A DNA stretch of 64,000 bases from Saccostrea cucullata (Eukaryota), in NCBI RefSeq assembly GCF_032062105.1, contig NW_026930674.1, positions 310,001 through 374,000 on the forward strand, in the 5' to 3' direction. Position numbers: made by a program. Shown in pieces: positions 22,001 to 25,000 of the stretch (positions within the stretch are counted from its first letter, which is position 1; each line of letters starts with the position of its first letter).

Positions 22001-25000
22001 AGTTAATCAGGACCTGGACATCACGGCTACATAACATCACCAGGGACATAAGGCACTGAAGTCAGAAAAAGATAAAAACTACATAACATCACCAGGCACA
22101 TAAGGCACTGAAGTCAGAACAAAATAACAACTACATAACATCACCAGGGACATAAGGCACTAAAGAGAGGAAAAACAACATATAACAACTACATAACATC
22201 ACCAGGGACATAAGGCACTAAAGTCAGAAAAAGACACATATTACAGAATCACGTAGACTACTGCCACAAAGAAATGAATCATTTAAACCTATGAAACTGA
22301 AAAGTGGGATCTTTTCACATTTCCATAATATTTAGATAAACATATATATGTACTAAAAAAAAAAAATTCTCTGCTCTTTGCTTTGGAGCAATTCAGTTTT
22401 GTAACGTTCAATAACAAATGATACTTTGATCATTACAAAGGTGGCCAAGAAGAGACAGTCAAATATACTGCAAATAAACAATACCATTCCTAGTTATTGA
22501 TCACTATGATTACAATGTTACATTACAATGTTAATATTTAAGTTTTCATCACAGATAAGTTTAAAATTAAAAGTCAACAGAAAATATTATACAAGGTACA
22601 TTATTGACAAGCTAAGATCAAATTCCAAATACACTGAGTTCAGTATCTTCAATTTACTGTTTTATTCATTTACTGCCTTTTCCCTGTGGTATGTCAAATA
22701 CATCTGTCTAACCATCCTTCTTCTTTTTCGTTTTATTTTGTCAGAAATCATAGCTTCTGAACTTAATACATCAAATCCAAATTAAAATATAAGAGGCTAT
22801 GATACTTTATATGGGTGGTAAGGAGAGGTGAAAATGTGACTGACAAAAGGAACAGCCAGGTGAAGTTAAGGCTAAACTATTAATCCAAGGGTTACTAGGT
22901 TTGAATCCCCCTGGCATTTTGAATGCAATGATCTGTTGAGGGATACATGTGTGAATTTACATACAGAATGGCATGATATTAATCTGCAATTTAATCTGGT
23001 TTTAATTCACTAAATACCATTCTGACAGATATGAATAATCTTTTTTCACCTTTAGGAAAAAATAATAGTTTTTCCCTAAGAATGTAAAAAATCCTTAAAT
23101 TCATAAATGGATAAAGTAGTTTGGAAGCTTTGACCAAGTAATGAATATAGGGAATGTATTTATCTGTAACCGATTCAAGGCAAAAGGAAGGTTATCAGAC
23201 TTACCCCAAACAAGAGGAATGGAAGTGGTGTGAACAAGTTGATATTGAGAATGGAGGGTTATCAAACTTACCCCAAACAAGAGGAATGGAAGTGGTGTGA
23301 ACAAGTTGATATTGAGAATGGAGGGTTATCAAACTTACCCCAAACAAGAGGGATGGAAGTGGTGTGAACAAGTTGATATTGAGAGTGGAGGGTTATCAAA
23401 CTTACCCCAAACAAGAGGAATGGAAGTGGTGTGAACAAGTTGATATTGAGAGTGGAGGGTTATCAAACTTACCCCAAACAAGAGGGATGGAAGTGGTGTG
23501 AACAAGATATTGAGAGTGATATTGAGAGTGGATGGAAGTGGTGTGAACAAGTTGATATTGAGAGTGGAGGGTTATCAAACTTCCCAAACAAGAGGGATGG
23601 AAGTGGTGTGAACAAGTTGATATTGAGAGTGGAGGGTTATCAAACTTACCCCAAACAAGAGGGATGGAAGTGGTGTGAACAAGTTGATATTGAGAGTGGA
23701 GGGTTATCAAACTTACCCCAAACAAGAGGGATGGAAGTGGTGTGAACAAGTTGATATTGAGAGTGGCTAGGAATTCTGGCAGGTGCCCCTGTCTGGCTCC
23801 CACAAAGTACAACCTACAATAAAAGATCACACATAAGTCTTCCGAACTTCTAATTTAAAAAAGAAATACATGGAGAATGTTTGCACTTATTGATTTTATG
23901 GGTCAAAGAGAAATATCTTTCACATCTATTAAATTATTTTTATTTTTTAATTCAAATTGTAAACATTTTTTACAATGCCCCTAACCAATTACACTTTAAA
24001 CTCAAGATCAATGTTTAATAATGTGATTAATACAAGTTATTTAATTTTTTCATAAATAATTTTGTAGTATACATGTACTATATAAGGACAGTTATCATAT
24101 CAAAATATAACTACAAATACTTCGTATATATGTACTTTACATGTGTTTACTTATTTAATATATTCATTTTTTTTTATCCTCTGACCTTTCCATGCCATTT
24201 AAAATTCTTAAAGACTTTATGAAAACAAACATCATGAAATTTCTTTATGAAAATAAAAGGAGAATTTAAGGATTCCTTTCATTCGCTCAACAGATTTTTA
24301 AGAAGCAGTAAATTCTAAAGAGGTAGTAAAGTCTATGCCTATAAAATATAAGGTTGTTTTAATAGTTTTACGAGGGGATATAGAATGCTGTGACTGACCA
24401 ACAACTTCCACGGAGCTTAATGTAGAGATCTAACCACATAATGTAAACATAATGCTGCCTTGAACTGATACAAGGCCCAGTTCTTGTAGGTCTGTCTAAA
24501 AAGTAGTCAGAACAATGACCTTATTTTGACATATTTTAATTTTAGAAAATATATAAAACATCAACACGAACGAAGATCATCTTTTTTAGAAACCTAGTAT
24601 CTATTTCAATAAAAATTAAAAAGAATGAAAAAGAAGGACCTTCAGAACGACCATCCCATCCGCTTTTCTGAACATTTAATTAGAAACTGGAGATCCGCTT
24701 CTAAATTATCTTGTATGAAATTTAAACAGATATCTGTAAATTTTTTAAAGATGTTTCCAGTAAAAATATAACCATTTTTTGTAATGTTAACCAATTTCTA
24801 TTACATAATGTACCACATTTATATATGGATGGTATTTTAATTAAGATTCTCATATCGTGTCTTGAATTTAATTCACACAATTAAATGTAAAATTTACTGA
24901 CACCTATTTTATTATGACATGGAGAACAGGTTCTGAAAATAAATGCGGTCAACCAAACCCTAAAGATGCATTGACTTTGCAGGTTGACATGACAGAAAAC

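What the first reader, a model, noticed from the sequence alone, without database searches (positions are those of the whole stretch)
22027..23766. One intron with both splice junctions amplified: arrays of decoy donors and decoy acceptors around SLC7(-) intron 7
Seen: two unrelated tandem arrays sit exactly on the two ends of the same 1.66-kb intron. Each unit contains exon-edge sequence plus an intact splice site, giving 7 GG|GTAAGT donors on one side and 4 Y-rich/YAG acceptors on the other. The outermost donor (23717) and outermost acceptor (22055) give the full protein; every alternative I translated by hand frameshifts or hits a stop. Inference: the spliceosome must skip the proximal identical sites. 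This could be a copy-number-tunable unproductive-splicing/NMD rheostat, stepwise re-splicing, or a junction-targeted duplication process. It could also be two neutral slippage events.
Basis: partly seen in the sequence, partly recalled or inferred. Interest (0 to 1): 0.72.

Follow-up and report, generated by a model that had tools for sequence, protein, structure and literature searches.

The report
Repeated splice sites bracketing one oyster intron
In an oyster amino-acid transporter gene, two short tandem repeats have copied the start and the end of one intron several times; this is most likely a tolerated by-product of DNA slippage like known human cases, though having it at both ends of one intron is unusual.

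Summary
The window is oyster DNA, not human. Its minus-strand SLC7 gene reproduces the 488-aa RefSeq protein of Saccostrea cucullata exactly.

Coding intron 7 (23716-22056, 1661 nt, phase 0) begins inside a 67-nt array. That array has 8 units plus a rearranged piece, with 7 intact GGG|GTAAGT donors and 1 that lost its GT. The intron ends inside a 52-58-nt array with 4 Y-tract/AG acceptors.

Of the 28 donor x acceptor pairs, 27 hit a premature stop. Only 23717/22055 stays open, and that junction is the one in the RefSeq model and in all 10 oyster orthologues examined.

The donor side is a known kind: a minisatellite whose first unit spans the exon-intron boundary, as in human F7 IVS7, IFI6, CBS, LMNB2 and PDGF. 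In F7 only the most upstream donor is used (PMC1557585). I found no acceptor-side or two-ended precedent in my literature searches.

The best reading is two independent, tolerated slippage expansions. A copy-number "rheostat" or nested re-splicing is neither supported nor excluded, because no RNA data, population data or sister-genome data were on hand. Interest is moderate to low.

The parts
21210..33331 (-). SLC7 (Y+L amino acid transporter 2-like) gene, 10 coding exons: 33331-32854, 32551-32426, 28071-27972, 27797-27753, 27556-27433, 25115-25012, 23813-23717, 22055-21906, 21689-21512, 21274-21210
   Evidence: A piecewise fit to P0121 (XP_062567300.1, Saccostrea cucullata) gave one GT-AG solution per intron. 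The CDS is 1467 nt, which is 488 aa plus a stop. P0121 matches Pfam AA_permease_2 at E=1.3e-62.
23717..23813 (-). Coding exon 7 (97 nt), ending ...PLPSLLFG
23186..23766 (-). Donor-side array. The 67-nt unit is the last 47 nt of exon 7 plus the first 20 nt of the intron. There are 8 units plus one truncated and rearranged piece at 23521-23565. The first unit is the real exon-intron junction.
   Evidence: TRF rows with period 67 and 97-98% matches; unit listing
23711..23716 (-). Authentic donor GTAAGT (last exon base 23717)
   Evidence: It is the only donor that, with acceptor 22055, reproduces P0121 and keeps the frame open.
23199..23649 (-). Six decoy donors GGG|GTAAGT with last 'exon' bases 23650, 23473, 23406, 23339, 23272 and 23205. 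One dead copy at 23583 has its GT deleted.
22056..23716 (-). Intron 7, 1661 nt, phase 0. About 531 nt at its 5' end and about 190 nt at its 3' end are array-derived. The unique core is roughly 23185-22246.
22027..22245 (-). Acceptor-side array of 4 units. Each unit is 23-29 nt of intron tail (Y-tract plus YAG) followed by the first 29 nt of exon 8. The last unit is the real intron-exon junction.
   Evidence: TRF period 52, 3.9 copies, 85% matches; unit listing; self-blastn extent
22107..22217 (-). Three decoy acceptors (first 'exon' bases 22217, 22159, 22107) upstream of the authentic acceptor (first exon base 22055)
21906..22055 (-). Coding exon 8 (150 nt), starting CLMSLVMLCSRD...

Best explanation
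Two separate minisatellites arose by tandem duplication and later slippage or unequal exchange. One grew across the exon 7/intron 7 border and the other across the intron 7/exon 8 border of an oyster Y+LAT2-like transporter gene.

Each array includes a splice junction, so each extra unit carries a full copy of the splice signal, and all extra units lie inside the intron. The gene still works because the two outermost sites, the only ones joined to the unique exon sequence, recreate the ancestral mRNA.

On the donor side the productive site is the first donor transcribed and the one closest to exon 7's own acceptor. It gives a 97-nt exon, whereas the decoys would give 164-609 nt. This is the site selected in the experimentally studied human F7 intron 7 array. 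On the acceptor side the productive site is the one nearest exon 8's own donor (a 150-nt exon). It also has a clean Y-tract and a branch-like TTTAT 18 nt upstream.

Any use of a decoy gives a premature stop and, by inference, decay of that transcript. The arrays are therefore at most mildly costly and are probably young and variable in copy number.

Shown: the anatomy, the reading-frame consequences and the junction used by the public protein model. Inferred: the origin by slippage, the silence of the decoys and the absence of function.
For: (1) The arrays are unrelated in sequence and differ in how their units vary: 97-98% matches on the donor side, 85% matches with 6% indels on the acceptor side. 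This fits two events.

(2) The unit borders sit at short direct repeats. On the donor side it is CC (..tagCC|actctc and ..cttCC|ttttgc). On the acceptor side it is TATGT (..taaTATGTg|tc and ..gtTATGTag|cc) (read from the sequence).

(3) The RefSeq protein of the same species (P0121) is reproduced exactly with junction 23717/22055. All 10 oyster sequences whose junction I could print read LLFG|C without a gap. The head-to-head paralogue has an intron at the same place without arrays. The intron is therefore old and the arrays are additions.

(4) Precedent comes from PMC1557585 (Introduction and Discussion read). It describes minisatellites whose first monomer spans an exon-intron boundary in human F7, IFI6 (6-16), CBS, LMNB2 and PDGF. 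In F7, 4-8 identical pseudo-donors stay silent and only the most upstream site is used, in three cell types.

(5) A downstream donor stimulates recognition of the upstream 3' splice site (exon definition; passage read in PMC8724738). This favours the acceptor next to exon 8.

(6) No pairing between the arrays and no unusual RNA structure was found. Only 2 weak inverted pairs exist, and neither links the arrays. The folds of 3 donor units are no more stable than shuffles (z +0.8 to +1.35).

(7) The other 8 of the 10 local direct-duplication loci in the window lie outside this gene's splice junctions. I did not map the other genes' exons precisely, so their overlap with those genes' junctions was not checked. 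The window therefore shows no sign of junction targeting, but this is a weak test.
Against: (1) Two arrays on the two ends of one intron is a coincidence. It occurred in 4e-4 of random placements within this window for this gene.

(2) All 4 acceptor AGs and 7 of 8 donors are intact. Youth explains this for the donor array. It explains it less well for the acceptor array, whose Y-tract parts have diverged.

(3) In the acceptor array the exon-derived 29 nt has 1 variable column of 29, against 7 of 17 (or 11 of 23) in the intron-derived part (Fisher p = 0.002 / 0.0002). Uniform neutral decay does not predict this. Fast slippage in T-runs may explain it, but I could not show that.

(4) The three decoy acceptors are transcribed before the authentic one, would give exons of 202-312 nt, and have comparable pyrimidine content (15-17 of 20). 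Nothing in the sequence guarantees that they are silent.

(5) The silence of the decoys rests on a protein model and on mammalian experiments, not on oyster RNA.
Confidence: 0.7

Rival explanations
1. Copy-number-tunable expression control. A fraction of transcripts is spliced at decoy donors or acceptors, acquires a premature stop and is degraded. The number of units would then set how much productive transporter mRNA is made.
For: 27 of 28 alternative pairs give a premature stop, at least 123 nt upstream of the exon 8/9 junction and with a further exon junction (9/10) downstream of that. The decoy signals are consensus-quality: GGG|GTAAGT is identical to the authentic donor, and the acceptors have 15-17 of 20 pyrimidines. 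In the known donor-array class some pseudo-sites are used (IFI6 and CBS; PMC1557585, Introduction). The CBS exon 13-intron 13 31-bp VNTR is listed as lowering enzyme activity; I saw only the table row in PMC1395315 and the title of Lievers 2001 in two reference lists.
Against: There are no RNA data. The RefSeq annotation yields a single protein for this gene in the cluster listing. Only 15 of that cluster's 62 members were listed, so this is weak. In F7 the identical pseudo-donors are completely silent (PMC1557585). A device built from 97-98% identical units is as well explained by youth as by selection. The rule that a stop upstream of an exon junction triggers decay is established for vertebrates and, as far as I recall, not for molluscs.
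Confidence: 0.12
2. Assembly artefact. One or both arrays, or their unit numbers, were created or inflated by the assembler or by polishing of noisy long reads.
For: Nothing independent confirms the arrays. The sequencing technology of the assembly was not established (one search found no genome paper for the species among the 10 rows listed). The rearranged piece at 23521-23565 looks irregular.
Against: The units carry a structured pattern of variants. Two C/T columns are shared by subsets of units, one unit has a 2-nt deletion, and the last unit has a distinct intron tail. This looks like mutational history rather than stutter. Assemblers usually collapse such arrays rather than invent them (general knowledge). 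The flanks join seamlessly to exons that match the public protein exactly.
Confidence: 0.08
3. A process or mechanism specific to splice junctions. Either duplication is targeted to junctions (for example transcription- or spliceosome-linked DNA damage), or the two-ended design supports nested splicing: an inner decoy pair is spliced first, and the intact outer pair then removes the remainder and rescues the transcript.
For: Both ends of the same intron are affected. After any inner-inner splice the outer donor, the outer acceptor and its branch-like motifs (TTTAT at 18 nt, CTTAT at 46 nt) would still be present. At least 119 nt would lie between them (67 + 52). This is inference from the sequence.
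Against: Neither of the window's other two SLC7 features shows the pattern: the paralogue's homologous intron is short and array-free, and no other junction of this gene lies in a local duplication. Recursive-site splicing is excluded because no acceptor is followed by GT. Any splice that consumes the authentic donor or the authentic acceptor is terminal. I recall that exon-junction complexes suppress re-splicing; I did not check this.
Confidence: 0.05

Closest known systems
Human F7 intron 7 37-bp VNTR (Borensztajn et al. 2006, PMC1557585; abstract, Introduction and Discussion read)
   Same: It is a minisatellite whose first unit spans the exon-intron boundary, so the authentic donor is followed by several identical pseudo-donors. 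The productive site is the most upstream one. Use of a downstream site is non-productive.
   Different: This case is in an oyster, not a mammal. The unit is 67 nt with 47 nt of exon (F7: 37 bp with 4 bp of exon). The donor here is a consensus GTAAGT (F7: the weak gugggu). A second array sits on the acceptor of the same intron. Usage and polymorphism have not been measured here.
IFI6 (6-16) intron 2 and CBS intron 13 minisatellites (as summarised in PMC1557585, Introduction; the primary papers were not held)
   Same: Both are boundary-spanning arrays with many reiterated donors.
   Different: [quoted passage not shown] The CBS VNTR is listed as associated with lower enzyme activity (a table row and a reference title only). 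Whether any decoy is used here is unknown.
LMNB2 (100-bp unit) and PDGF intron 4 (81-bp unit) minisatellites (PMC1557585, Introduction)
   Same: The units are long and only the authentic donor is reported as used. This is the behaviour I infer here.
   Different: They affect the donor side only, and they are mammalian.
Tandem duplication across an intron-exon boundary in a potato RdRp gene (PMC4974935; abstract and passages read)
   Same: The duplicated segment is the intron tail plus the exon head. The branch site, Y-tract and 3' splice site are therefore inherited by the copy, as in the acceptor units here.
   Different: The potato case has two copies and produced a new, spliced intron with a donor taken from former exon sequence. 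Here there are four copies, no new intron, and the extra copies simply lengthen an old intron.
Recursive (RS-site) splicing and nested multi-step splicing (for example dystrophin; PMC4829307 seen only in a search listing)
   Same: An intron could in principle be removed in more than one step.
   Different: No AG|GT recursive site exists at any of the 4 acceptors. A nested route is only a formal possibility.

Membership tests
Boundary-spanning minisatellite with reiterated 5' splice sites (F7 IVS7 type) | Head-to-tail array of units of tens of bases inside an intron | tested here: met
   67-nt period, 8 units plus a rearranged piece, 97-98% matches
Boundary-spanning minisatellite with reiterated 5' splice sites (F7 IVS7 type) | The first unit contains the exon-intron boundary, so the donor sequence is repeated downstream | tested here: met
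   Unit 1 is the last 47 nt of exon 7 plus GTAAGT and the following intron bases. There are 7 identical GGG|GTAAGT sites. The exon end at 23717 was fixed by the fit to P0121.
Boundary-spanning minisatellite with reiterated 5' splice sites (F7 IVS7 type) | Only the most upstream donor (or it plus one or two neighbours) is used in mRNA | tested here: inconclusive
   The public protein model and 10 of 10 printed oyster orthologues need the most upstream donor. No transcript-level data were available.
Boundary-spanning minisatellite with reiterated 5' splice sites (F7 IVS7 type) | Unit number varies between alleles (VNTR) | not testable with these tools
[quoted passage not shown] | Tandem duplication that crosses an intron-exon boundary or contains AGGT | tested here: met
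   Acceptor units are intron tail plus exon head.
[quoted passage not shown] | A new intron, absent from relatives, is created by the duplication | tested here: not met
   The junction LLFG|C is shared by 10 oyster sequences. The paralogue in the window has an intron at the same position. The intron is old and is only lengthened.
Recursive splicing (RS sites) | A 3' splice site directly followed by a donor-like GT, so that a 5' splice site is regenerated after the first step | tested here: not met
   All 4 acceptors are followed by TGCCTTATGT.
Regulated unproductive splicing coupled to NMD | Alternative splice choice introduces a premature stop upstream of a later exon junction | tested here: met
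   27 of 28 pairs give a premature stop. The nearest stop is 123 nt upstream of the exon 8/9 junction. This is in silico only.
Regulated unproductive splicing coupled to NMD | The alternative sites are really used, and the element is conserved or regulated | not testable with these tools
   No RNA data and no sister-species genomic DNA were available.
SLC7 / APC-superfamily amino-acid transporter, L-type/y+L branch (the host gene) | Full-length match to the amino-acid permease profile and close orthologues named Y+LAT2/LAT | tested here: met
   P0121, reproduced exactly by the window's exons, matches PF13520 at E=1.3e-62 over residues 36-444. The search with exon 1 gave 1157 hits at E<=0.001 among 2586 candidates, named Y+L amino acid transporter 2 or LAT by their sources. 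Transport function was not tested.

The most novel reading that the evidence does not exclude
The two arrays work together as a two-ended decoy device. Unit number at both junctions sets the share of transcripts lost to unproductive splicing. Because decoys exist at both ends, an inner decoy-to-decoy splice is not terminal: the intact outer pair can splice again (nested rescue). A single-ended array such as F7 cannot do this. A natural intron with 7 identical strong donors and 4 acceptors would then be a heritable, stepwise-adjustable control of transporter dosage in a highly polymorphic bivalve.
Probability: 0.07. Interest if true: 0.7.

Novelty: new variant of a known kind. Interest (0 to 1): 0.35.

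Why it matters
If the best reading holds, this is a tidy natural example in a mollusc of something known from a handful of human genes. It shows that tandem duplication of a complete splice junction can be tolerated at the acceptor end too, and at both ends of one intron.

Its practical value is as a natural test bed for splice-site choice outside vertebrates. It offers seven identical consensus donors and four near-equivalent acceptors in one 1.66-kb intron, and every wrong choice is readable as a distinct junction. A few RNA-seq libraries would show whether the 'most upstream donor wins' rule of F7 holds in a bivalve, and what rule governs reiterated acceptors. I found no natural model for reiterated acceptors in my searches.

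It also warns gene predictors: 27 of the 28 consensus-quality site pairs here are wrong.

Tried and rejected
(1) Transcripts or ORFs that read into the donor array. I searched the 5.8-billion-protein set twice with residues 46-150 of the ORF at 23402-23854(-). With 'near' lengths, 0 of 78 candidates scored; with 'longer', 0 of 532 scored. Nothing was found, so the searches provide neither independent confirmation of the array nor evidence of decoy use. The tool itself calls such blanks weak.

(2) Pairing between the arrays that could loop out the decoys. Only 2 weak inverted pairs exist in 21800-23900, and neither links the arrays.

(3) Structure that could hide the decoys. Local unpaired probabilities are near 0 for the authentic donor and for all decoys alike. 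The folds of 3 donor units are no better than shuffles (187, 157 and 164 of 200 shuffles fold at least as well). This is not informative.

(4) A non-coding RNA or tRNA hosted in the intron. There were 0 Rfam matches at gathering score and 0 tRNAs in the whole window.

(5) Pfam on the short exons 7 and 8 alone gave no match. The family was confirmed on the full public protein instead.

(6) A five-residue in-frame micro-exon from the decoy acceptor units (the CTG|GTGATG donor inside the 29-mer). I rejected this as speculative. Neighbouring units would leave introns of only 37-43 nt. The +5-aa isoform of Ostrea edulis differs in exon 3, not at this junction, and no second exon-3 copy was found in the window.

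(7) Papers I wanted but that are not held: Gao and Lynch 2009 and Turri et al. 1995. Supplements were not consulted.

(8) Orthologous introns of other oysters could not be examined. Conservation, polymorphism and raw-read support therefore stayed unchecked.

(9) Slips. One search had coordinates one base off and was redone. One search used a search term with an apostrophe and was redone. The script stopped at the last intron and was completed.
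Full report
**What the window is**

The 64-kb window has 33% G+C and no N. It is not human. A search with the first coding exon alone (window 32855-33331, minus strand) found SLC7-type transporters: 1157 proteins at E<=0.001 among 2586 candidates. The closest were oyster proteins at 92-93% identity.

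The 90% cluster of one of them contains XP_062567300.1, 'Y+L amino acid transporter 2-like' of Saccostrea cucullata (P0121). I fitted exon borders piecewise to P0121 and combined only split codons. This gave exactly one GT-AG solution for each of 9 introns. The resulting CDS is 1467 nt, which is 488 aa plus a stop, and it is identical to P0121. The window is therefore S. cucullata or something indistinguishable from it at this locus. P0121 matches Pfam AA_permease_2 at E=1.3e-62.

The spliced model was searched exon by exon only. The full-length comparison used the public protein against the window.

**The observation**

Coding intron 7 runs from 23716 to 22056 on the minus strand. It is 1661 nt and phase 0, and lies between exon 7 (23813-23717) and exon 8 (22055-21906).

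- Donor side. Tandem Repeats Finder reports a 67-nt array over 23186-23766 (97-98% matches). Written out on the minus strand, each unit is the last 47 nt of exon 7 plus the first 20 nt of the intron. There are 8 units plus a truncated, rearranged piece at 23521-23565. Seven units carry an identical GGG|GTAAGT. One, at 23583, has lost the GT.
- Acceptor side. The array (22027-22234 by TRF, to 22245 by self-blastn) has 4 units. Each is a 23-29-nt Y-rich intron tail ending in TAG or CAG, followed by the first 29 nt of exon 8.

About 720 of the intron's 1661 nt are therefore copies of its own two junctions.

**Consequences for the reading frame**

I read each of the 28 donor x acceptor pairs in frame inside a script, only to locate stops. 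Of these, 27 meet a premature stop and only 23717/22055 stays open through exon 8. The stops lie at 23404 or at 22029-22201. That is at least 123 nt upstream of the exon 8/9 junction, and a further exon junction (9/10) follows downstream of that.

The productive junction is the one in the RefSeq protein. I tried to print the junction for 13 bivalve proteins, and 10 matched my pattern. All 10 were oyster sequences and all read ...PLPSLLFG|C(L/F)MSLVMLCSRD... without a gap. The 3 non-oyster proteins did not match the pattern and were not pursued. The head-to-head SLC7 paralogue on the plus strand has an intron at the same place (within 44977-45342). That intron is about 110 nt long and has no array. 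The intron is old and the arrays are later additions inside it.

**How the arrays probably arose**

The two units share no sequence. Their internal variation also differs: 97-98% matches against 85% matches with 6% indels.

Each array is bordered by a short direct repeat in what must have been the single-copy ancestor. On the donor side this is CC. On the acceptor side it is TATGT (read from the sequence).

The donor units also share variant columns in subsets, and the last unit keeps a distinct intron tail (GTAAGTCTGATAACCTTCC against GTAAGTTTGATAACCCTCC). This is what stepwise duplication and unequal exchange produce. Taken together, this points to two ordinary minisatellite births. That origin is an inference.

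**Is the coincidence significant?**

Within the window, 10 loci show local direct duplication. Two of them are these arrays, and the other 8 lie outside this gene's splice junctions. I did not map the other genes' exons precisely, so overlap with their junctions was not checked. Random placement of two arrays of these sizes lands on opposite ends of one of this gene's 9 introns in 4e-4 of 400,000 trials.

The finding, however, was picked from a scan. The other long-unit arrays cover 1344 of 64,000 nt, about 2%. If a junction is covered with that probability, both ends of a given intron are covered with probability about 4e-4. With a few hundred thousand introns per genome (my assumption, from no call), tens of two-ended introns would be expected by chance unless selection removes them. 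The coincidence alone therefore does not call for a special mechanism. Only a genome-wide count can settle this.

**How it most likely works**

The donor half has a close, experimentally studied counterpart. Borensztajn et al. [quoted passage not shown]

- In F7 intron 7, 4-8 pseudo-donors identical to the authentic one are functional when tested. [quoted passage not shown]
- Moving the first usable donor further from the exon increasingly causes exon skipping.

Here the productive donor is likewise the most upstream one. It gives a 97-nt exon, whereas the decoys would give 164, 341, 408, 475, 542 or 609 nt. Both the scanning rule and exon definition favour it.

The acceptor half is less protected. 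The three decoys are transcribed first and would give exons of 202, 254 and 312 nt. Their pyrimidine content is similar to the authentic site (15-17 of 20). The authentic site has a 9-nt uninterrupted Y-run and the only yUnAy-type motif at a usual distance (TTTAT, 18 nt). A donor at the 3' end of an exon promotes U2AF binding at the upstream 3' splice site (passage in PMC8724738), and this favours the acceptor nearest exon 8's donor. I therefore expect that any mis-splicing will occur at the acceptors.

**The functional readings**

- A rheostat through unproductive splicing is compatible with the frame analysis and with the partial use of pseudo-donors in IFI6 and CBS (PMC1557585). The CBS exon 13-intron 13 VNTR is listed as lowering activity; I saw only a table row and a reference title. 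I recall that F7 repeat number has been related to factor VII levels, but I did not find this in a call. None of this could be tested for the oyster.
- Two protein-database searches for ORFs reading into the donor array found nothing, which says little either way.
- Recursive-site splicing is excluded, because every acceptor is followed by TGCCTT.
- A nested route is formally possible and would be peculiar to a two-ended arrangement. After an inner decoy-to-decoy splice, the outer donor and the outer acceptor with its branch-like motifs remain, at least 119 nt apart. There is no evidence for it.

**Unexplained**

In the acceptor array the exon-derived 29 nt is almost invariant among the 4 units (1 variable column). 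The Y-rich intron-derived part varies at 7 of 17, or 11 of 23, ungapped columns (Fisher p = 0.002 / 0.0002). Faster slippage in T-runs, homogenisation seeded in the exon-derived part, and constraint are all possible explanations. With four units I cannot tell them apart.

**Comparison and novelty**

- The donor array meets the structural criteria of the F7-type class. Usage is inconclusive, and polymorphism is untestable here.
- The acceptor array resembles the potato RdRp duplication across an intron-exon boundary (PMC4974935, abstract read). It fails that class's defining feature, because no new intron was created.
- I found no natural array of reiterated acceptors, and no intron with arrays on both junctions, in seven full-text searches. 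The library lacks most subscription journals, Gao and Lynch 2009 could not be read, and supplements were closed. 'Not found' is therefore weak.

I file the finding as a new variant of a known kind. It is most likely neutral, and its value is as a natural model for splice-site choice in a mollusc.

**What stayed unchecked**

- Raw-read support for the arrays.
- Unit-number variation between individuals.
- The orthologous intron in other oysters.
- All transcript-level evidence.

Noticed in passing
window 37294-46674 (+): A second, diverged SLC7 paralogue lies head-to-head with the first. The two start codons are about 4 kb apart. At least 10 exon-sized tblastn matches were found. Its intron at the position homologous to intron 7 is only about 110 nt and carries no repeat.
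   Followed up: partly
window 22027-22245 (-): Within the acceptor array the exon-derived 29-mer is nearly invariant (1 of 29 columns varies). The Y-rich intron-derived part varies at 7 of 17 to 11 of 23 columns. This is unexplained.
   Followed up: partly
window 51390-52587 and 61585-62320: Two arrays of a 143-146-nt satellite-like unit (3.5 and 3.9 copies, 82-83% matches) lie in inverted orientation about 9 kb apart (17 inverted pairs, 80-93% complementary). They bracket an EF-hand-coding ORF at 55270-55635(-). They could be the ends of a large mobile element or a fold-back structure.
   Followed up: partly
window 14242-16893 (-): Several stop-free frames read like exons of a cyclin-dependent-kinase-like protein kinase (for example ...GEGTYGIV......[10 protein letters not shown]...). 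This was recognised by eye only. Two of the short frames gave no Pfam match on their own.
   Followed up: no
window 6767-7003: A 118-nt unit is repeated twice (96% matches). It is itself built of short CCA(C/A)TGGCA-like motifs. A wider local duplication spans 5732-7003.
   Followed up: no
window 2922-3263 (-): An ORF has a weak sulfatase-domain match (E=0.0038, 17 bits, below Pfam's cut-off of 25). It may be an exon of a sulfatase gene.
   Followed up: no
window 55309-55360: A perfect (GA)26 microsatellite lies inside the long stop-free frame that also holds the EF-hand match. The frame may be lengthened by the repeat rather than being coding throughout.
   Followed up: no
P0135 versus P0002 (Ostrea edulis), compared with window 27965-28084: The O. 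edulis orthologue has two RefSeq isoforms that differ only in the exon 3 region (a +5-aa alternative version). tblastn found no second exon-3 copy in this window.
   Followed up: yes
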